Positions 7,084 through 62,485 of a stretch of 64,000 nucleotides of DNA are shown here, in pieces. The notes beneath the pieces are model-generated. The model had not been told where the DNA came from and did no database searches. It saw only the letters and a list, made by a program, of their open reading frames with translations. The stretch is from Escherichia phage IME178. The stretch is from sequence record NC_104190.1, one strand, 5' to 3'. Position numbers and translations under genes: made by a program. Every line of letters begins with the position of its first letter. The stretch's first letter is position 1.

Positions 7084-7691
7084 TAAAGAATCCTCTGTAC
7101 ACCGCAGCTATTATTTTTGTCTGTGGTAAATGTGGTGATTTTGCCAGTTTCATCATTAACTTGCGCAACCGTCAACTGCCCGTTGAAAACACCGCCAGTA
7201 TCAAGGTAAACACGGTTTTTATAAAGAAGTGGGTAAGGTACTCCAGTATGCCCATGAAACACGAAATCTACCCCTTTAACTTCTGGCACTTCTACCATGT
7301 ATTTTTCTTTAAATCCTGAATAACGCTGGAAATACGGGTGTTCCTCACCATTTTTGGACAAGTAGAAGCCTATTTCTTGGATTACATCTCGATCCCATAA
7401 ATATGGTTCAATATGGTACCCAGGATGGTCATGTGGGTCTTCCTTAGCTGCTTCTACTTGTGCAATAAGATTATCCCATACTGGGGTTTCTACCTCATTA
7501 CCGCATTCTTTGTATGTAAAAGGTACACCACCGTGAACAACACCATACTTCTTACCACGATGTCTAACAGTTAGGAATACTGGCATTTTTTTCAGCCATA
7601 TCTTCGGCGATATTTTTAATGGTGTCTGCATCCAGCTCTTCCATAGCCCATATACCACCGTTATACATCCAATTAGCCCAATCTCCTGCAA
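7083..7691 (-). CDS. Ser/Thr protein phosphatase, C-terminal fragment
   Basis: VVHGGV and FVFHGHT resemble the C-terminal half of lambda-type PPP phosphatases; N-terminal half lies in another frame. Confidence 0.6.
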   Translation of the reverse strand: MQEIGLIGCITVVYGLWKSWMQTPLKISPKIWLKKMPVFLTVRHRGKKYGVVHGGVPFTYKECGNEVETPVWDNLIAQVEAAKEDPHDHPGYHIEPYLWDRDVIQEIGFYLSKNGEEHPYFQRYSGFKEKYMVEVPEVKGVDFVFHGHTGVPYPLLYKNRVYLDTGGVFNGQLTVAQVNDETGKITTFTTDKNNSCGVQRIL

Positions 7692-7959
7692 TCATAAATT
7701 GGTCGTGATTACCACGGACACTGATAAAATGTGGATTATATAGGAATTTGGCTAAAACTTGTAGGTTTTGTGTGCCTCGGTCAATTAAGTCACCAACACA
7801 TACTAAGCAATCTTTCTTGCTATTATACCCAGCTAATTTCAACGCATCTTCCAGCAAATCATTGCATCCATGAATATCACCGACGAAAAACAAGTTGGCG
7901 TCATCCGGCACTACTAGAGTTTTATGTATATTAAATTCTTTTTTCATAATTATTCCCAA
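7564..7959 (-). CDS. Ser/Thr protein phosphatase, N-terminal fragment
   Basis: GDIHG, GDLIDRG and GNHD PPP motifs; ORF ends just after an A7 run. Confidence 0.65.
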   Translation of the reverse strand: MGIIMKKEFNIHKTLVVPDDANLFFVGDIHGCNDLLEDALKLAGYNSKKDCLVCVGDLIDRGTQNLQVLAKFLYNPHFISVRGNHDQFMIAGDWANWMYNGGIWAMEELDADTIKNIAEDMAEKNASIPNC

Positions 7960-8195
7960 ATAACAGTTAAAATAGTTGTGCCATACTCATTAGATAGTTG
8001 GAGAGTATATCCCTCTTTATAGATGGCTTTTATAGCTTCATAACTAATTTCATCACGATTAAACTGTACAAAAGAACCTCCAATCTCCACAGAAGAAACT
8101 ATTCTCTTTTTAACATACTTATACGTTTTCTTCTTGCTCTTAAGGAGTGCAGCTCTATTTATCCTGGCTAAACGTTTTGCTTGTTCCGCTAACAT
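7950..8195 (-). CDS. hypothetical protein (81 aa)
   Basis: ORF in array. Confidence 0.4.
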   Translation of the reverse strand: MLAEQAKRLARINRAALLKSKKKTYKYVKKRIVSSVEIGGSFVQFNRDEISYEAIKAIYKEGYTLQLSNEYGTTILTVIWE

Positions 8196-9027: not shown

Positions 9028-9303
9028 TCATCCAGGAAATTTTTTAATAGCTTCGTGCATAGTTTCTTTACGAAGCTGACGTCCAATCAGAATATGATTA
9101 GCTTCTACTCGACCATTAGGTAAGCGATCTGCCAGAACTACTACAGGAACTTGGCGCACACCAAATTTCTGCATTAATTCTGTATTATCAGTCTCTTTGT
9201 GGACTTCCAAATTATAGTCATTGACTACTTTATCAAATACTGGCTCAAACATTTTGCAAGGGTTGCAAGTGGAACCTTTCAATAGATATACTAATTTACT
9301 CAT
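9028..9303 (-). CDS. thioredoxin/glutaredoxin-like protein
   Basis: CNPC active-site-like CxxC motif near the N-terminus, small size. Confidence 0.6.
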   Translation of the reverse strand: MSKLVYLLKGSTCNPCKMFEPVFDKVVNDYNLEVHKETDNTELMQKFGVRQVPVVVLADRLPNGRVEANHILIGRQLRKETMHEAIKKFPG

Positions 9304-10296: not shown

Positions 10297-10710
10297 TTAA
10301 ACTAGTTCGACATGACCGCCATCATAGGTACCACGTTTTATTTCATCGTGATAGTCTCCAGAATTATTCCAATCAGCACCAAAACGAAGTTTAATACCTA
10401 GTTCTTTACCCGCTTGTTCAAAAGCCTTTTTAACCGCCCAAAATGCTTCTAAGTCATTCCAATCAATTTTGCCATTAATATATGGAGCAAAATCAAGCGC
10501 ATCCCCAGTAATATGCTTGCTTTTACTAGGATCTTTTAAAAATGAAGTACCATTAGCAATATTCTGGGCACTTTGTGCTACTGTACGGATACCCTGTACG
10601 ATTGTGAAATCATATGGGGATAATTCTAAAGCTCTACGAGCTACTTTTTGTAGCTCTGGCTTAACGGTAGCTAATTGTTTTTCGCTATTTTTACCAAATT
10701 TAAAACTCAT
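10297..10710 (-). CDS. lys: endolysin, L-alanyl-D-glutamate peptidase (M15-like)
   Basis: 137 aa, the size I recall for T5 endolysin; zinc-peptidase-like H and D residues. Confidence 0.75.
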   Translation of the reverse strand: MSFKFGKNSEKQLATVKPELQKVARRALELSPYDFTIVQGIRTVAQSAQNIANGTSFLKDPSKSKHITGDALDFAPYINGKIDWNDLEAFWAVKKAFEQAGKELGIKLRFGADWNNSGDYHDEIKRGTYDGGHVELV

Positions 10711-10994
10711 ATTGATCTACCTAAAGATCTCTGTTGTGGGGAACAGAGCTTTGTTAAATATTCCTTAAATTTCTCAGAATCGGCTGCATCTACAGGATTA
10801 TCTTTCCAAGCAATACCAATATATCCAGCATAGATATTGTTTAGATTGAAATATGGACAAGTGTATATGTAATTAAAAGTAACGTTCTTAAACGCAGGTA
10901 TATTTAACCCCGTATATTTATTTACTCTTACACTTAAATCCGATGCGTAGTTAAAGCCCTCTAAGTGACGTCTGTATAGCTCAGACGTTTTTAT
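10707..10994 (-). CDS. holin-like protein, C-terminal fragment (no start codon)
   Basis: About 95 open codons ending at a TGA that overlaps the lys ATG; no ATG/GTG/TTG; frame offset from upstream ORF at an A5 run. Confidence 0.4.
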   Translation of the reverse strand: MKTSELYRRHLEGFNYASDLSVRVNKYTGLNIPAFKNVTFNYIYTCPYFNLNNIYAGYIGIAWKDNPVDAADSEKFKEYLTKLCSPQQRSLGRSI

Positions 10995-11364
10995 TTACTG
11001 CTTTATCGGCCAAGTCAGCCCTATCTAATTGCGCATTGCTTTCCCATGCAATAATGTTAGAATAATCATTAATGGCATCGGGTTTATACTTGACTACAAA
11101 AACAGCATCCGCACCCGTTTGAGAAAAGAGTACCATGCTCTTTTCTCTAGCTACATTAGGAAAGTTATCTATCCTTTGAGTTTGAACATCCTGTAGAACC
11201 GCAGACGTGGAGAAAGTCTTTAAGAATGACATCACCTCGCTAGTATTACTAACAAATAAGAAAATAATGACAGCAACTAAGATAGTTAGCAGACGTTTAA
11301 GAAGCGATGCTGGATCTTTCGCTTCTTGGAGCAGTACCGTTAATAATTGTAAGAACTTTTCCAA
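10981..11364 (-). CDS. holin-like membrane protein, N-terminal fragment
   Basis: Transmembrane segment; directly upstream of endolysin; frame breaks at the A5 run. Confidence 0.5.
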   Translation of the reverse strand: MEKFLQLLTVLLQEAKDPASLLKRLLTILVAVIIFLFVSNTSEVMSFLKTFSTSAVLQDVQTQRIDNFPNVAREKSMVLFSQTGADAVFVVKYKPDAINDYSNIIAWESNAQLDRADLADKAVNKNV

Positions 11365-11479
11365 TTGTAACCTCCTCTAACTAGTACCATTATACTAATT
11401 TTGGAGGAAAATTACAATGTATTTTTAAAGATTTTCTTTGGAGCACAAAATTTTGTCGTTGTCAAGAAGAATTTTAGAT

Positions 11480-12900: not shown

Positions 12901-13239
12901 TTAATTGGTGGATAGTAAACTAAGCAACGTTTTTTCTTGTAAATCTTGGCGATAGAAGCAAACCATACCAGTCAGTCGTGAAATATATGAGTATTCTGCC
13001 TCACGGCATTTTGCCAACATATTCCAATCTTTATATGGTACAACAACTACTACGCCATCTTCTCCATTTGTAGCTAATTTCTTTTCAAACTTAAAGTCAA
13101 AGCTACACGGTTGAAGTCCTTTAGGCCAGTCTACATGAGCTTGCTTTAACTCATGAGATGGCTCTGGTTTTATTTCTTCTGCACAGCCTGTGATTGTGAT
13201 TGCGGCTGCGAGCAGTATTCCAAGTTTCCAGTTAAACAC
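12901..13239 (-). CDS. putative lipoprotein
   Basis: Signal peptide with lipobox ITGC. Confidence 0.55.
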   Translation of the reverse strand: MFNWKLGILLAAAITITGCAEEIKPEPSHELKQAHVDWPKGLQPCSFDFKFEKKLATNGEDGVVVVVPYKDWNMLAKCREAEYSYISRLTGMVCFYRQDLQEKTLLSLLSTN

Positions 13240-23103: not shown

Positions 23104-23281
23104 ATTAAATTACTTTTTCCAGTTCATCAGCTATGGCTTTGATTTTTTCAAAGTTTACATCACTAATAATGATACCTTCCAGTGACAGAGATATTCTAGC
23201 ATTTTTTCGTAGCAGATTCTTTTATCTGCTCTATCTCTTCTGGAGTAAACTCTCTACGTTCCATAGCTAACCTACATTATT

Positions 23282-24547: not shown

Positions 24548-24826
24548 TTAAGAATTTGATGCCTTTTTTTTTTTTTTTTTCTTCTTATACTTCCACGTTA
24601 ATGGATTCTGTCGATTGTGAACGCTTGAGATCTTTGTCTCGTCAAAGTTCTTCAATACCATGTAATCACAAGATAATTGTTCTAATGGAATGTGATCACC
24701 GTCAAAAGCGTATACATAAGGCTGTTGACTAGCACTATAATGATAGACTTTGTTAATTCTACGTTTCAGCAACTTATCCGCGCAGTAAATAAAGAAGTTT
24801 TCAGGATGCATCAGCAGCTCCCTCAA
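24548..24826 (-). CDS. hypothetical protein with C-terminal poly-Lys encoded by an A17 tract
   Basis: ORF runs through a 17-nt homopolymer giving KYKKKKKKKK before the stop. Confidence 0.4.
   Translation of the reverse strand: MRELLMHPENFFIYCADKLLKRRINKVYHYSASQQPYVYAFDGDHIPLEQLSCDYMVLKNFDETKISSVHNRQNPLTWKYKKKKKKKKASNS
24564..24580. repeat. 17-nt T/A homopolymer
   Basis: Uninterrupted T17 on the plus strand inside the 3-prime end of a minus-strand ORF. Confidence 0.9.
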
Positions 24827-31059: not shown

Positions 31060-31413
31060 TTACTCTACTTCAATGAAGGTAGAGGCGTTAGACTCGGACA
31101 GAACAAAGTCAACATTTGTTGCAAAGTCCTGATATTCCTCGTCATGCTGCTTAATCAGCTTTTCCAGTTCCAGCGGATCAATCAAGAATGGAGTATTCTT
31201 GAGTTCCAGCAGGTTGAGCTGCATTTTAACTTCATCTTCGGAAGTTTTTCTTATCGCGGGTAGCCATGCTATCCTGCAAACGCTCATATTTAGCATCAAA
31301 CTGTGCTTTCTGCGTATTAAACTTAACCGTGGCGGCATGGAACTGCTTACGCATGTTAGCCAGCAGTTGGGCTTTAAGTTCCATAGAACGCTTAGCTTCA
31401 ATTGCTTCCGCAA
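31060..31413 (-). CDS. hypothetical protein, probable C-terminal fragment
   Basis: Overlaps the upstream ORF by 182 nt in another frame; frames meet at an A5 run. Confidence 0.4.
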   Translation of the reverse strand: MRKQLKLSVLWNLKPNCWLTCVSSSMPPRLSLIRRKHSLMLNMSVCRIAWLPAIRKTSEDEVKMQLNLLELKNTPFLIDPLELEKLIKQHDEEYQDFATNVDFVLSESNASTFIEVE

Positions 31414-31699
31414 CAGTCATCTTACGAGAGCCAATCTCAACGATTGTTTCCGCATTGCTTTTAATCAGAGCAGCTTTGATACGATCACGCTGGGACATCA
31501 TATCCAGCAGAGACTGGAAATCAGTCTTAATACGAGTAGACAGATCAGCTACTTCGATTGCAGCGCCAACTACAACCTGGTTTTTATCCTTACCTTCACC
31601 AACAGCGATCAGAAGCTGCTGTTCAGTAGCTTTACGGATTTTAGCTTCCAGAGATTTGATAGTTGCCAGAGCGCGAGTTTTAGAAATACGAGTAGTCAT
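31232..31699 (-). CDS. hypothetical coiled-coil protein (155 aa)
   Basis: ORF with charged helical composition. Confidence 0.5.
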   Translation of the reverse strand: MTTRISKTRALATIKSLEAKIRKATEQQLLIAVGEGKDKNQVVVGAAIEVADLSTRIKTDFQSLLDMMSQRDRIKAALIKSNAETIVEIGSRKMTVAEAIEAKRSMELKAQLLANMRKQFHAATVKFNTQKAQFDAKYERLQDSMATRDKKNFRR

Positions 31700-31752
31700 T
31701 ATTTGCTTCCTTATATGAAGTTTGAGATTTGAATTTGTTTAAAGTTGGCCTA

Positions 31753-34707: not shown

Positions 34708-34802
34708 ATGTGTACCTCCAATTTATAAAATATATTATATTTAAATTTCACTAAATAAGCAAATGAAATTTAAATATAATAGCCCCGAAGGGGCTATTTG
34801 AG

Positions 34803-45486: not shown

Positions 45487-45903
45487 ATGTATTCTCTAAA
45501 GAAGCTAACCCAGTTTTGGTTAACTTTTGGCGTACTCTCCCAGCTAGTGTATAATGAGGCTATTAACTCTTTGAAAATATGGTGTGAGAATAACGAAATC
45601 TCCTTTGCTTTTAAAGATGATATTGATGAGGCCCCCTGTATTGGTTTAATTGTGCAGGTAGAGGATGGCCTTGAAGAGATTGTGGGCTGGAAAGAGTTAG
45701 ACGAAATGGGCTTAGTTTTTGCGTTAAACTATAAGCTGTTTATGCCTGCTAAGCATCGCCTCGTTGTTAACTATAAAAATAGTGAATCTCCTGGTTTTCA
45801 GGTTAATGAACGTTATGGTTGGTCTTACTTACCGGAAGAAGTAAATGAGGGGATTCAGAAACTTCGACGTTTCGGGTATATGATCCCAGGTTTAACTGCT
45901 TAA
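45487..45903 (+). CDS. hypothetical protein, paralog A
   Basis: Shares PCIG, W-x-EL-x-MGL and C-terminal G-Y-x-PGL motifs with the next ORF. Confidence 0.5.
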   Translation: MYSLKKLTQFWLTFGVLSQLVYNEAINSLKIWCENNEISFAFKDDIDEAPCIGLIVQVEDGLEEIVGWKELDEMGLVFALNYKLFMPAKHRLVVNYKNSESPGFQVNERYGWSYLPEEVNEGIQKLRRFGYMIPGLTA

Positions 45904-52257: not shown

Positions 52258-52857
52258 ATGACTAATGTAAAAGACTTTATTAAACGCTGTCAAGAAGCAT
52301 ATTATCAAGGTATGTCTTTAATCTCTGACGAAGAATATGATCGTCTGATTAAAAGATTTCCATTAGAAGAAGAGATCGGGCCTAAGGGTGATATTCCACA
52401 TCTGTATCGTATGTATTCTTTACAGAAAGTTTATTATAATCGTGGAGATAAACCTCCGTTCAACCCGTTAGGTCAGGTAGAAACTGATAAGTTAGATGGT
52501 TGTGCGATTTCTCTGTTATATATTAATGGAGAATTTGTTCAAGCACTAACTCGTGGTAATGGTATTCTAGGGAATGATGTCACAAGCAACGTAAGATTGC
52601 TGAATATCCCTAAAAAGATTTCCCAAAAAGTACCTACTCAAATCACTGGTGAAGTTCTAATTACAAAAGAAGTAGAAAATAAACGTAACTTTGCCTCTGG
52701 TGCTATTAACCTCAAAGATAGCGATGATTTCGTACAACGTATTGGGGAAGGTGGTTTAATCTTCGTTGCATATGGTATCCAGTGTTCTGCTGAATCTGTA
52801 GGTATTACAGAAGCGTACTTAAAAGATATGCTCTGGCTGGAGAATGAGACTTCTTAA
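52258..52857 (+). CDS. lig: NAD-dependent DNA ligase, adenylation-domain piece
   Basis: KxDG adenylation motif ([10 protein letters not shown]) and LigA-like N-terminal Ia/NTase sequence. Confidence 0.8.
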
Positions 52858-52868
52858 CAGTTGTTAAT

Positions 52869-53228
52869 GTGCGTTCCTTCTTTAAGTGGATTCCGACGGA
52901 TGGTAAAGTTGTTCGTATTAATGACAACAACAAATTCTTCCGTGAAGGCTGGACTAATAAATTTCCTCGTGGAGCATTCGCTATTAAAGAAGATGAAGAA
53001 GGCGAGATTACAACTCTTACTAAAGTTGAATGGCAGGTAGGGGCTTCTGGTAAAGTAACTCCAGTTGGTTATTTCGAATCGGTAATTATTGATGATGCTA
53101 CAATTGTTAAGGCGACTCTTAATAACGTTGATTATATTAACTCTCTTGATCTAGAGATCGGTTGCCAGATTCGAGTAATTCGTGCTGGTGGTGTAATCCC
53201 GTGCATAGTAGAGCGAGTATACGATTAA
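52869..53228 (+). CDS. lig: NAD-dependent DNA ligase, NTase motif IV-V plus OB-fold piece
   Basis: Aligns by eye to E. coli LigA DIDGVVIK...PRWAVAFKF...VEFQVGRTG...RAGDVIP; GTG start without RBS. Confidence 0.7.
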
Positions 53229-53280
53229 TATATGTAACCCTTTGCTACCCATCTACCATATAGGAATTATAAAGTGGTTA

Positions 53281-55045: not shown

Positions 55046-56518
55046 ATGACCTTGTTTAACGTGCAAGCTGTAGTGTTGAAGATGCTTCTAGCTTCTGAAC
55101 AGAAGCAAATAGCATTGGAAACATTCTCAAAACTGCATAAAGATCATTTTAATGACGCTTTCTCCTCAATTTACCAAGCCGTCCAGAATTATTATAAAAA
55201 ATATAACACAATGCCGTCCATTGACGCACTGATGCTTGAAGCTAATAGGAACGCCCGCCTTTCTCAAGCTCTAGTCGTCTTAGCTAACACTCAAATTCCA
55301 GAAGTGAGCATGGAACAGGCACTTGAAGTCCTAGAGGCTGAATATACACAGGATTTATTCCTGAAGCTTCTAGAAACAGACGTGCTTCAAGATTTAACAA
55401 TGCTGGATCAGGGAGAAATTCTCAACCGAGTTGCCTCCCTTCACTTAAAATTAGAAGAGAAAGTAACGAATACTGGAAAAGTATTCAACGCAGATAACAT
55501 GCGTATTTTCCAGAGAGAAGAAGATACCAAACTGAACCTAATCGCTCTTGGTATTTGTAATGAGTTTGACGCTCAAATTGGTTTAGCTCGCACAGAAACG
55601 TTACTGCTTGGTGGTTGGCGTGGTACTGGTAAATCCATTATCTGTTCAAACATACAGGTTCAGCAATATTTGAATGGAGATATTGCTCCATACTTCTCAA
55701 TTGAGATGAAAGAACATGAAGTATTTAGACGTAATCTAGCCATGTTAGCTGGTGTATCCGCACTAGCAATGCGTAATAATACTCTAGAAGGTGCAGCTCT
55801 GCTGAGATTAGCCAGAACTAGAGCTAGAATGTTTAATGGCGGTGAAGAGCTTTTCGATAACTTCGTTAAACAGTACACAATGGCTAAGATGAGTGATTTC
55901 TACGATATGGAGAGTAAACTAATAGAAGGGTATGAACTACATACTCCTATGATTATCGTTTATGACCCTGAACTGTCCATTACAACAGTTGATGTAGAAT
56001 TAAATAAATTAGTTGCTAGATATGGTGATAAAGTTACAGTAGCTTTATTGGACTATATTAACCAAACCCGACTTCCAGACTCTAAAACCATTGATATGTA
56101 TGACTGGAAAGAACAGATGGTTGTTAGCTCGTCTTTCAAATCTATCTGCCAGAAACATAACGTGGCTGGCGTAGCTCCTTACCAGATCGATCAAGATGGT
56201 AGAACACGTATGTCAAAGGGTATTCTTGATTCCGCAGACATGGCTGCTAATCTTAATGCTGCAAAAGCTGATAATGGTCAAGGTGCTATTATGTTTGACT
56301 TCGTTAAGACTCGTTCTTCTGATAGCGTGAAGTTTATGCCTAAAATGAACTGGGAAACCTTGCGGATGGATAACACTACCAACCTAGCGATGGAAGATAT
56401 ATCTCAAATGGAAGCTGAGTTCGTTATCCCTATTGAGAAGGATAAGCCGGCTCAACCTAAACGTGCTAAGAAAGACAAAACCGAAAATTCAACAGGTGAA
56501 CAGGCCAGCGATATATGA
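55046..56518 (+). CDS. DnaB-like replicative helicase
   Basis: RecA-fold Walker A GGWRGTGKS; longest-ORF start sits inside the terminator hairpin so start moved downstream (55046-55082 uncertain). Confidence 0.65.
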   Translation: MTLFNVQAVVLKMLLASEQKQIALETFSKLHKDHFNDAFSSIYQAVQNYYKKYNTMPSIDALMLEANRNARLSQALVVLANTQIPEVSMEQALEVLEAEYTQDLFLKLLETDVLQDLTMLDQGEILNRVASLHLKLEEKVTNTGKVFNADNMRIFQREEDTKLNLIALGICNEFDAQIGLARTETLLLGGWRGTGKSIICSNIQVQQYLNGDIAPYFSIEMKEHEVFRRNLAMLAGVSALAMRNNTLEGAALLRLARTRARMFNGGEELFDNFVKQYTMAKMSDFYDMESKLIEGYELHTPMIIVYDPELSITTVDVELNKLVARYGDKVTVALLDYINQTRLPDSKTIDMYDWKEQMVVSSSFKSICQKHNVAGVAPYQIDQDGRTRMSKGILDSADMAANLNAAKADNGQGAIMFDFVKTRSSDSVKFMPKMNWETLRMDNTTNLAMEDISQMEAEFVIPIEKDKPAQPKRAKKDKTENSTGEQASDI

Positions 56519-57294
56519 GTAGAATAACAGAACTACTTGATCTGAAAGGCATTGAATATAAAGACACAGGTGGGGACATCCTCATCTGTTGTCTCAATCC
56601 AGATCATGACGATAAACACCCAAGTTTGCGTATTGATCCTGAAACAGGTATTATGCACTGCTTGAGTTGTGGCTTCGGTAAAGGTATACCGAGCATTTAC
56701 CATTATTTTAATGAGACTCAGTACCGACAGTCCCCAAGGCTATCGCAAGTACGTAAAAAGATTTCAGAGATTAGGAATGGGTCAACGAATCTTGCAATTC
56801 CTGAATCTGCTTACCTTTTCGAAGGTGATTTCCGAGGTATAAGTTCTAAGACCTTGAAGAAATATTTTGCTTTCCAACACCAAGCAGACTGGGAAGGCAG
56901 AATTGTATTCCCAATCACAGATGCTGTTGGACGCAATATCCTATTTTTGGGTCGTTCTATAAACAGTTCTGCCCCTCCTAAATACTTAGTAAAACCAAAA
57001 CAAGTTTCACCACCAATTTTTCCTGTACGATATAATACCCCAATTCTTATTCTAGTTGAAGGTATCTTTGATATGCTGAATCTAGAGGATAATGGTATAG
57101 ACTATGCTTCTTGTTGCTTCGGTACACATCAGTTTACTTCAGATAACATTGCAGATAAGTTTAGTCCGTATATTATTGCTGGTGTTAAAGTTGTTGTTAT
57201 CTTACTAGATAATGATGCTTCTGGTAATAAAGCTGCACAAGCACTGGCTAAGCTAATTCGTACAAAAAACGCGTTTAACACCTGTAGTTGCTAA
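56515..57294 (+). CDS. DnaG-like DNA primase (zinc-binding plus TOPRIM), truncated by frameshift
   Basis: Zn ribbon CCLNPDH...HCLSCGFG, TOPRIM ILVEGIFD and LLDNDASG; ORF stops just after an A6 run. Confidence 0.75.
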   Translation: MSRITELLDLKGIEYKDTGGDILICCLNPDHDDKHPSLRIDPETGIMHCLSCGFGKGIPSIYHYFNETQYRQSPRLSQVRKKISEIRNGSTNLAIPESAYLFEGDFRGISSKTLKKYFAFQHQADWEGRIVFPITDAVGRNILFLGRSINSSAPPKYLVKPKQVSPPIFPVRYNTPILILVEGIFDMLNLEDNGIDYASCCFGTHQFTSDNIADKFSPYIIAGVKVVVILLDNDASGNKAAQALAKLIRTKNAFNTCSC

Positions 57295-57406
57295 CTTTCT
57301 TCTGCCTGAAGGTAAAGACCCAGGTGACTTAAGTAAAGAAGAAATTGATATGTTAGCAAAACGTATTGAAATTTTAGTTGCTGAATCGCTTAAAGATTTG
57401 GTATAA
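57257..57406 (+). CDS. DNA primase C-terminal fragment (+1 frame)
   Basis: +1 frame after the A6 run encodes the canonical TOPRIM tail LPEGKDPGDL. Confidence 0.6.
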   Translation, partial: FVQKTRLTPVVANFLLPEGKDPGDLSKEEIDMLAKRIEILVAESLKDLV

Positions 57407-57455
57407 TAGTCCTAAATAACTGAGGAGCTACTATGGAATATGTATATATATTTAT

Positions 57456-57764
57456 GTGGATGTTCCAGTGTATGATAGTATAACACACAAAGAGGTTAAA
57501 CTAGAGCGGTTTACAACACTGGAGTCCCTTAATAAACGAAAGAATTTCCATTTATTTGGTGATCCTAAATTACCTGCATCTTATATTTACTTTAAAGTAA
57601 AAGATACAGGTCAAGAGGTATACCTAACATATGATTGGGCTGTTGTAGAAAATACTGAGCAATCTATGAAAGCGCTAGATGCTTTTCTGCGTATAGATGA
57701 AGAATTTCGGGTACTAGAAAAGCAGCGCAATGAAATGCGTAAATTACTTCACACCTATAAATAG
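57456..57764 (+). CDS. hypothetical protein (102 aa)
   Basis: GTG start without RBS; overlapped by a 16-codon ORF (57433-57483) that has a strong GAGGAG RBS. Confidence 0.4.
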   Translation: MDVPVYDSITHKEVKLERFTTLESLNKRKNFHLFGDPKLPASYIYFKVKDTGQEVYLTYDWAVVENTEQSMKALDAFLRIDEEFRVLEKQRNEMRKLLHTYK

Positions 57765-62264: not shown

Positions 62265-62485
62265 ATGATGTATAATATACACATAAATTTGAGAGAGAAA
62301 GTTTCGGATTGATAAGAAAGTCCGAAGCAGAAAAATAAAAAATTTTAGTTGCTAAATTCTCTCGAAATCTAGTATAATATATACATAAATTCGAGGAGAA
62401 AATAAAAATTAAATTCTTCGATTATGAAAAGCTATACTTACTAGCTAGAGGAAATTCCGACCTAATTATTAAGCTATTCAAAAGA

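What the first reader, a model, noticed from the sequence alone, without database searches (positions are those of the whole stretch)
56515..57406. DnaG-like primase broken by a +1 shift at an A6 run
The primase ORF ends at 57294 shortly after AAAAAA (57264-57269), but the +1 frame from 57257 to 57406 encodes LPEGKDPGDL, the canonical TOPRIM C-terminal motif. Removing one A fuses the two into a full-length primase. A phage that needs its primase is unlikely to carry a true knockout, so this is either a homopolymer assembly error or ribosomal/transcriptional slippage.
Basis: partly seen in the sequence, partly recalled or inferred. Interest (0 to 1): 0.6.

Follow-up and report, generated by a model that had tools for sequence, protein, structure and literature searches.

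The report
Primase frameshift is a sequencing artefact
The T5-like phage primase gene really is split by one extra A in this sequence, but the same record carries a dozen similar one-base errors that break other essential genes, so the split is almost certainly a sequencing or assembly mistake and not biology.

Summary
The primase ORF (56515-57294) ends 25 nt after an A6 run (57264-57269). The +1 frame (57257-57406) encodes the last TOPRIM motif, LPEGKDPGDL. Deleting one A gives a 296-aa protein that is 294-295/296 identical to the primases of Tequintavirus relatives.

The A6 is private to this window. All 34 related loci have A5. An exact A6 pattern has 0 hits in IMG/VR, JGI metagenomes and GTDB genomes.

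The window also has 14 private 1-2 nt indels (12 insertions) in 58 kb. The same test gives 0, 1 and 3 for three relatives. Nine of the 14 are +1 extensions of homopolymers. Private indels also break the Ser/Thr phosphatase, holin, a T5.085-like gene, a small ORF and DNA ligase A, and shift two C-termini. A strictly lytic phage cannot carry all of these.

No recoding signals are present: no conservation, no slow A-site codon, no stimulatory structure, and no separate ORF for the tail.

Verdict: a homopolymer over-call in an error-prone assembly, confidence about 0.9. The true gene is an ordinary intact DnaG-type primase. Interest is low. Raw reads or resequencing would settle it.

The parts
56515..57294 (+). 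Truncated primase ORF as written (259 aa). It contains the CHC2 zinc ribbon, the DNAG_N core and the first two TOPRIM motifs (VEGIFDM, LLDNDASG). The last 9 codons (NAFNTCSC*) are out-of-frame junk.
57264..57269 (+). A6 run. It is A5 in every relative examined, and the extra A causes the frameshift.
57257..57406 (+). +1-frame continuation encoding the authentic primase C-terminus. It differs from relatives by a single S/N substitution.
57302..57331 (+). LPEGKDPGDL, the DnaG TOPRIM motif VI. It is reachable only in the +1 frame.
7586..7592 (-). Private T7 (T6 in PK7 and AKFV33). It breaks the Ser/Thr protein phosphatase gene: 300 open codons after repair, 202+140 as written.
9040..9045 (-). Private T6 (T5 in relatives). 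It shifts the last codons of the thioredoxin gene.
10988..10992 (-). Private T5 (T4 in relatives). It breaks the holin gene: 222 open codons after repair, 131+95 as written.
12930..12935 (-). Private T6 (T5 in relatives). It shifts the C-terminus of the T5.044-like (o-spanin) gene.
23202..23207 (-). Private T6 (T5 in relatives), inside a small hypothetical gene (AKFV33 orf066 homologue).
31245..31249 (-). Private T5 (T4 in SA001, PK7 and AKFV33). It breaks the T5.085-like 212-aa gene into 155-aa and 117-aa ORFs.
52848..52852 (+). Private 1-nt deletion (GAGAAC/GAAGAC to GAGAC) that breaks DNA ligase subunit A. The gene is 323 aa in relatives and 199 + 119 aa here.
62337..62342 (+). Private A6 (A5 in relatives) in an intergenic region. 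It is the same error type as the primase A6.

Best explanation
The window is part of a Tequintavirus (T5-like) genome whose deposited sequence contains a scattering of base-calling or assembly errors, mostly over-calls of A/T homopolymers by one base. The extra A at 57264-57269 is one of them. The real phage almost certainly has A5 and makes an ordinary, uninterrupted 296-aa DnaG-type primase (zinc ribbon, DNAG_N core, TOPRIM) from a gene translationally coupled to the upstream DnaB-like helicase. The private status of the indel, the genome-wide pattern and the intact downstream frame are shown. The cause, a sequencing error as opposed to a real mutation, is inferred, because the reads are not available.
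For: (1) A6 is unique. A5 is found in 34/34 related loci, 15 of them chosen without regard to the run. The exact A6 pattern has 0 hits in viral contigs, metagenome contigs and genome contigs, against 19 hits for A5 in viral contigs. None of the 30 best phage records spans 86 nt for the 86-nt query. The 259-aa product is not on record among 153 billion gene positions. All 10 contigs with the identical helicase protein have a 296-aa primase. (2) The window has 14 private 1-2 nt indels (12 insertions, 2 deletions) in 58.3 kb. The same method gives 0 for SA001, 1 for PK7 and 3 for AKFV33. Nine of the 14 are +1 extensions of homopolymers. (3) Reverting each indel restores full-length reference-size frames for the Ser/Thr phosphatase, holin, the T5.085-like gene, ligase A and the primase. 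Ligase A lacks a base that 17/17 relatives have. T5-like phages are strictly lytic, so a genome with all of these genes broken could not be propagated. (4) The out-of-frame tail is undegraded: the repaired protein is 294-295/296 identical to relatives. (5) No recoding apparatus is present.
Against: No reads or quality values are available, so the error is inferred and not observed. Large genes such as the DNA polymerase (855 aa) and helicase (507 aa) are intact, so the error rate is modest, about 2 per 10 kb. Phage DNA polymerases do slip at homopolymers in vivo (bioRxiv 10.1101/2025.10.21.683753), so any single one of these insertions could be a real minority or recent variant.
Confidence: 0.9

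Rival explanations
1. The extra A is a real, recent slippage mutation. It is present in the sequenced DNA as a defective or minority genome, or as a contingency-locus-like variant, and knocks out the last TOPRIM motif of the primase.
For: Homopolymers of 6 or more bases in phages show indel frequencies around 3e-4 per site within populations (bioRxiv 10.1101/2025.10.21.683753). The tail is undegraded, as expected for a very recent event.
Against: A consensus assembly should not fix a variant present at 1e-4. The ancestral run is only A5. At least five other genes, including the holin and ligase A, are broken by the same kind of private indel, which no viable lytic phage could carry together. 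The cited paper finds such repeats under-represented in replication genes.
Confidence: 0.06
2. A6 is genuine, and full-length primase is made by recoding. Either the ribosome slips +1 on ACA-AAA-AAC (tRNA-Lys re-pairing from AAA 57265-57267 to AAA 57266-57268, giving exactly the wild-type ...TKTRL... sequence), or RNA polymerase drops one A from the transcript.
For: A +1 slip on the A run would regenerate the exact wild-type protein, by direct reading. The zero-frame context A-AAA-AAC is a slippery heptamer.
Against: The frameshift is not conserved in any relative, whereas programmed sites are conserved. A-AAA-AAC favours -1 slippage, which gives ...TKKRV* and does not rescue. There is no stop or rare codon in the A site (AAC), and no SD-like element in the upstream GCTAAGCTAATTCGTAC. 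The downstream fold is no better than shuffles (z = -0.73). From general knowledge, efficient transcriptional slippage needs runs of about 8-9 or more A/T. The same indel type also hits intergenic DNA (62337) and genes where no recoding makes sense.
Confidence: 0.02
3. The primase is naturally split into a 259-aa protein plus a separately translated small C-terminal peptide carrying motif VI.
For: T5-like phages do have a naturally split ligase, with A and B subunits.
Against: No ATG/GTG/TTG-initiated ORF of 20 aa or more exists in the tail frame. The first start in that frame is downstream of the motif, and the longest peptide from it is MLAKRIEILVAESLKDLV, 18 aa. No relative has such an arrangement.
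Confidence: 0.01

Closest known systems
Tequintavirus (T5) DNA replication primase, e.g. T5 pri YP_006949 and SA001 QKE54264 (296 aa)
   Same: After removal of one A the protein is 294-295/296 identical. The position is the same, between the DnaB-like helicase D6 and the DNA polymerase. The Pfam architecture is the same: Zn_ribbon_DnaG, DNAG_N and Toprim.
   Different: As written, the ORF is cut at codon 259 by a private extra A, and the last TOPRIM motif is out of frame.
Bacterial DnaG primase catalytic core (Aquifex aeolicus 2au3, E. coli 1dd9/1eqn, 5vaz)
   Same: The RNA-polymerase core and TOPRIM align over residues 126-277 (E = 3e-11 to 1e-6). The EG(x)FD, DxD and LPEG.DP motifs are conserved.
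   Different: The protein is much shorter. It has no C-terminal helicase-binding domain, and similarity is distant and limited to the core.
Homopolymer-length errors of flow-based or nanopore sequencing in deposited phage genomes
   Same: One-base length changes are concentrated in A/T runs of 4-7 bases. They are private to one record, hit coding and intergenic DNA alike, and break conserved genes whose downstream frames are intact.
   Different: The sequencing platform and the reads are unknown. A few private indels are not in homopolymers (43568, 45548, 53234).
Phage contingency loci (Gomez, Barrick and Waters, bioRxiv 2025, 10.1101/2025.10.21.683753)
   Same: A frameshift by a +1 change in a mononucleotide repeat that reaches 6 bases.
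   Different: Those are reversible population-level variants in tolerated genes. Here the ancestral run is A5, the gene is a replication enzyme, relatives show no length variation at the site, and many other genes are hit at once.

Membership tests
DnaG-type primase | N-terminal CHC2 zinc ribbon | tested here: met
   PF01807 scores 28.2-28.5 bits against a cutoff of 24.9, residues 4-58. CxxH...CxxC is visible in ICCLNPDHDDKHPSLRIDPETGIMHCLSCG.
DnaG-type primase | DNAG_N catalytic core | tested here: met
   PF08275 scores 27.7-28 bits against a cutoff of 26, residues 121-161. It aligns to 2au3, 1dd9 and 5vaz.
DnaG-type primase | TOPRIM fold with conserved Glu and DxD | tested here: met
   Toprim_2 and Toprim_4 score above their cutoffs. 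VEGIFDM and LLDNDASG align with VEGYFDL and LYDGDDAG of 2au3.
DnaG-type primase | Final acidic TOPRIM motif (LPEG.DP) in the same reading frame as the rest | tested here: not met
   As written, the motif lies in the +1 frame, and the truncated ORF covers only 1-70 of 88 Toprim_2 positions. The feature is met after deleting one A, and it is met in all relatives.
Programmed +1 ribosomal frameshift site (prfB/antizyme-like) | Frameshift conserved among homologues | tested here: not met
   None of 34 related loci has it. Exact-pattern scans of three collections gave 0 hits.
Programmed +1 ribosomal frameshift site (prfB/antizyme-like) | Slow or stop codon in the A site, plus a stimulator (upstream SD-like element or downstream structure) | tested here: not met
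   The A-site codon is AAC. No SD-like sequence lies upstream. The downstream 81 nt fold at -15.6 kcal/mol, z = -0.73.
Transcriptional slippage site | Long A/T run (about 8-9 or more, from general knowledge) that is conserved | tested here: not met
   The run is only 6 A and is 5 A in all relatives.
Phage contingency locus | Repeat-length heterogeneity among relatives or within the population | tested here: not met
   No length variation is seen among relatives. Within-population heterogeneity cannot be tested without reads.
Sequencing/assembly homopolymer artefact | Excess of record-private 1-nt indels, biased to homopolymers, in coding and non-coding DNA alike | tested here: met
   The window has 14 private indels against 0, 1 and 3 in three relatives. 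Nine are +1 in runs.
Sequencing/assembly homopolymer artefact | Several conserved or essential genes broken, with intact downstream frames | tested here: met
   The repair test restores the phosphatase, holin, T5.085-like gene, ligase A and primase to reference length.
Sequencing/assembly homopolymer artefact | Read-level disagreement or low quality at the site | not testable with these tools
   No reads or source record are available. The window's own proteins (truncated primase, DNA polymerase) are not on record.

The most novel reading that the evidence does not exclude
The A6 run is genuine in a viable phage. Functional primase would then be supplied by low-level +1 slippage on ACA-AAA-AAC, ribosomal or transcriptional, which would regenerate the exact wild-type sequence. 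Alternatively, the site behaves as a reversible contingency-type switch in a replication gene.
Probability: 0.03. Interest if true: 0.5.

Novelty: not a real feature. Interest (0 to 1): 0.06.

Why it matters
Its main value is as quality control. The record needs correction at about a dozen sites, and annotation pipelines would otherwise report a truncated primase, holin, ligase and phosphatase for this phage. If the A6 were real, the phage would either replicate without the last metal-binding TOPRIM motif of its primase or rely on unprogrammed slippage, which would be unusual. The genome-wide error pattern makes that very unlikely.

Tried and rejected
1. I looked for the source record, or for an independent assembly with A6. 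The exact-pattern scans of IMG/VR, JGI metagenomes and GTDB genomes found nothing. Exact-protein look-ups of the truncated primase and the DNA polymerase also found nothing, so the platform and the reads could not be identified.

2. I tested whether the +1 insertions are biased to sense-strand A runs, which could hint at a cDNA or transcription origin. All eight A/T cases are sense-strand A. However, 75% of A/T runs of 5 or more, and nearly all runs of 6 or more, are sense-strand A anyway. The chance value is p about 0.1, so this idea was rejected.

3. I tested for a split gene with a separate small ORF. No ORF of 20 aa or more exists in the tail frame, so this was rejected.

4. I tested for a downstream frameshift-stimulating structure and found none.

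5. A literature search for T5 primase genetics gave nothing specific. PMC3632103 mentions primase only in its reference list.

6. The 2-nt deletion at 45548 changes only the predicted N-terminus of a small ORF and could not be classed as a break.

Full report
**What the window is.** Megablast of the primase region finds 442 phage records, nearly all Tequintavirus (T5-like, Demerecviridae) phages of Salmonella and Escherichia. The best is Salmonella phage SA001, at 98.7% identity over the whole query. The rest of the window is 95-99% identical to PK7, AKFV33, SA001 and others. No record is identical, so the window's own record is not in the collections I could search.

**Checking the observation.** The ORF 56515..57294 (259 aa) is real. 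Its ATG overlaps the stop of the upstream 507-aa DnaB-like helicase. A6 is at 57264-57269. The +1 frame is open from 57257 to 57406 and encodes ...TRLTPVVANFLLPEGKDPGDLSKEEIDMLAKRIEILVAESLKDLV*.

In SA001, BB1, Stp1 and BF23 the primase is a single 891-nt CDS. Alignment A1 shows that the only length difference inside the gene is one extra A in this run. Deleting one A gives a 296-aa protein that is 294-295/296 identical to the relatives.

Pfam finds Zn_ribbon_DnaG, DNAG_N and Toprim domains. The truncated ORF covers only positions 1-70 of the 88-position Toprim_2 profile, while the repaired protein covers 1-86. Against solved structures, LPEGKDPGDL aligns with LPEGYDPDEF of Aquifex DnaG (2au3) and LPEGEDPDSL of 5vaz.

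**Is A6 seen anywhere else?** It is not.
Fifteen of them were fetched without any reference to the run: five from the phage collection, and ten contigs that encode a helicase identical to the window's.
- All ten of those helicase-matched contigs, which come from NCBI, ENA and Logan assemblies, have a 296-aa primase.
- An exact A6 pattern has 0 hits in IMG/VR, JGI metagenomes and GTDB genomes. The A5 pattern has 19 hits in IMG/VR.
- The 30 best records for an 86-nt query around the run all match over 85 nt.
- The 259-aa product is not on record.

**The decisive context.** I compared the whole window with SA001, PK7 and AKFV33. I listed 1-2 nt indels that are private to one genome, meaning that every other genome covering the site agrees against it and at least two genomes cover it. 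The window has 14 such indels (12 insertions, 2 deletions) in 58.3 kb. SA001 has 0 in 41.6 kb, PK7 has 1 in 58.6 kb, and AKFV33 has 3 in 31 kb.

Nine of the window's 14 are +1 extensions of a mononucleotide run:

| Window position | Run in window | Run in relatives |
|---|---|---|
| 7586-7592 | T7 | T6 |
| 9040-9045 | T6 | T5 |
| 10988-10992 | T5 | T4 |
| 12930-12935 | T6 | T5 |
| 23202-23207 | T6 | T5 |
| 31245-31249 | T5 | T4 |
| 34790-34793 | G4 | G3 |
| 57264-57269 (the finding) | A6 | A5 |
| 62337-62342 (intergenic) | A6 | A5 |

In addition, ligase subunit A lacks one base at about 52850 that 17 of 17 relatives possess.

**Repair test.** I reverted each indel and measured the open frame across it. 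This shows the following breaks.
- 7586 splits the Ser/Thr phosphatase: 300 open codons after repair, 202+140 as written.
- 10992 splits the holin: 222 codons after repair, 131+95 as written.
- 31245 splits the T5.085-like gene into 155-aa and 117-aa ORFs.
- 23202 hits a small hypothetical gene.
- 52850 splits ligase A: 323 aa in relatives, 199 + 119 aa here.
- 57264 splits the primase.
- 9045 and 12935 shift the C-termini of the thioredoxin and the T5.044-like (o-spanin) genes.

**Interpretation.** T5-like phages are strictly lytic, so a genome with broken holin, primase, ligase and phosphatase genes could not be propagated. The indels are one-sided (insertions), concentrated in homopolymers, and fall in intergenic as well as coding DNA. 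They leave the downstream frames undegraded. This is the signature of base-calling or assembly error and not of selection-filtered evolution. The primase A6 is one member of that series. I put this explanation at about 0.9. The remaining doubt exists only because the reads cannot be inspected.

**Rivals.**
- *A real recent slippage mutation or contingency-type variant.* Phage polymerases do slip at repeats of 6 or more bases, at about 3e-4 per site in populations (bioRxiv 10.1101/2025.10.21.683753). Such minority variants would not dominate a consensus. The ancestral run is A5. The same paper finds these repeats under-represented in replication genes. This reading also does not explain the other broken genes. 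Confidence about 0.06.
- *Recoding.* A +1 slip of tRNA-Lys on ACA-AAA-AAC would regenerate exactly the wild-type sequence. However, the shift is not conserved in any relative, and the A-site codon AAC is neither a stop nor a rare codon. There is no upstream SD-like element. The downstream RNA folds no better than shuffled sequence (z = -0.73). The A-AAA-AAC heptamer favours -1 slippage, which runs into a stop after three codons. Six A is also short for transcriptional slippage, on general knowledge. Confidence about 0.02.
- *A natural split gene.* No start-to-stop ORF of 20 aa or more exists in the tail frame, and no relative has such an arrangement. Confidence about 0.01.

**Comparison with what is known.** The underlying gene is the ordinary Tequintavirus replication primase, a short DnaG-type enzyme without a C-terminal helicase-binding domain. 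It sits between the D6 helicase and the DNA polymerase. Nothing about it is new. The feature flagged, the frameshift, is best classified as not a real biological feature.

**Limits.** Only three full-length relatives were used to polarise the indels. The platform and coverage of the source assembly are unknown. Only the 30 best hits and 34 fetched loci, out of about 440 related phage records, were inspected base by base at the run.

Noticed in passing
window 52258-53228 (+): DNA ligase subunit A is split into 199-aa and 119-aa ORFs by a private 1-nt deletion at about 52850. All 17 relatives examined have the extra base. A private +2 insertion lies just after its stop, at 53234.
   Followed up: yes
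window 7086-7985 (-), 10710-11375 (-), 31063-31737 (-): The Ser/Thr phosphatase, holin and T5.085-like genes are each broken by a private +1 T-run insertion (at 7586, 10992 and 31245). The thioredoxin (9045) and the T5.044-like o-spanin (12935) have shifted C-termini.
   Followed up: yes
window 57433-57456 (+): The small ORF after the primase has (TA)4 where six relatives have (TA)3. This puts its ATG (57433) and good RBS out of frame with the 102-aa body, which then starts at GTG 57456. The draft genome of Salmonella phage Stp1 (KY775453) shares the (TA)4, so this may be a real dinucleotide-repeat polymorphism or a recurrent error.
   Followed up: partly
window 24564-24580: A T17 tract sits where AKFV33 has CCTTTCTTTTTC, which is 8 nt shorter. 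It lies inside the homologue of AKFV33 orf070 on the minus strand, near its 3' end, where it would read as poly-A/poly-Lys and shift the frame. It may be another assembly artefact or a hypervariable tract.
   Followed up: partly
window 34782-34796: The private extra G (G4 against G3) turns AGCCCCGAAGGGCT into the perfect hairpin AGCCCC-GAA-GGGGCT in what looks like an intrinsic terminator. This private indel improves a structure where the others break genes, so it could be genuine.
   Followed up: no
L026, L033, L035 (5521-6054) compared with window 56515: Some relatives carry an HNH homing-endonuclease gene (176-177 aa) inserted between the helicase and the primase (and the two-piece matches). 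The window lacks it.
   Followed up: no
window 57433-57764, compared with L027 and L029-L032: The roughly 109-aa ORF between the primase and the DNA polymerase is present in the window, SA001, BB1, BF23 and L028. It is absent from AKFV33-like relatives, where the polymerase starts 63 nt after the primase. It is an accessory-gene presence/absence polymorphism.
   Followed up: no
window 56515-56518: The primase ATG overlaps the helicase stop (ATGA), which suggests translational coupling of helicase and primase. The same arrangement is annotated in relatives.
   Followed up: no
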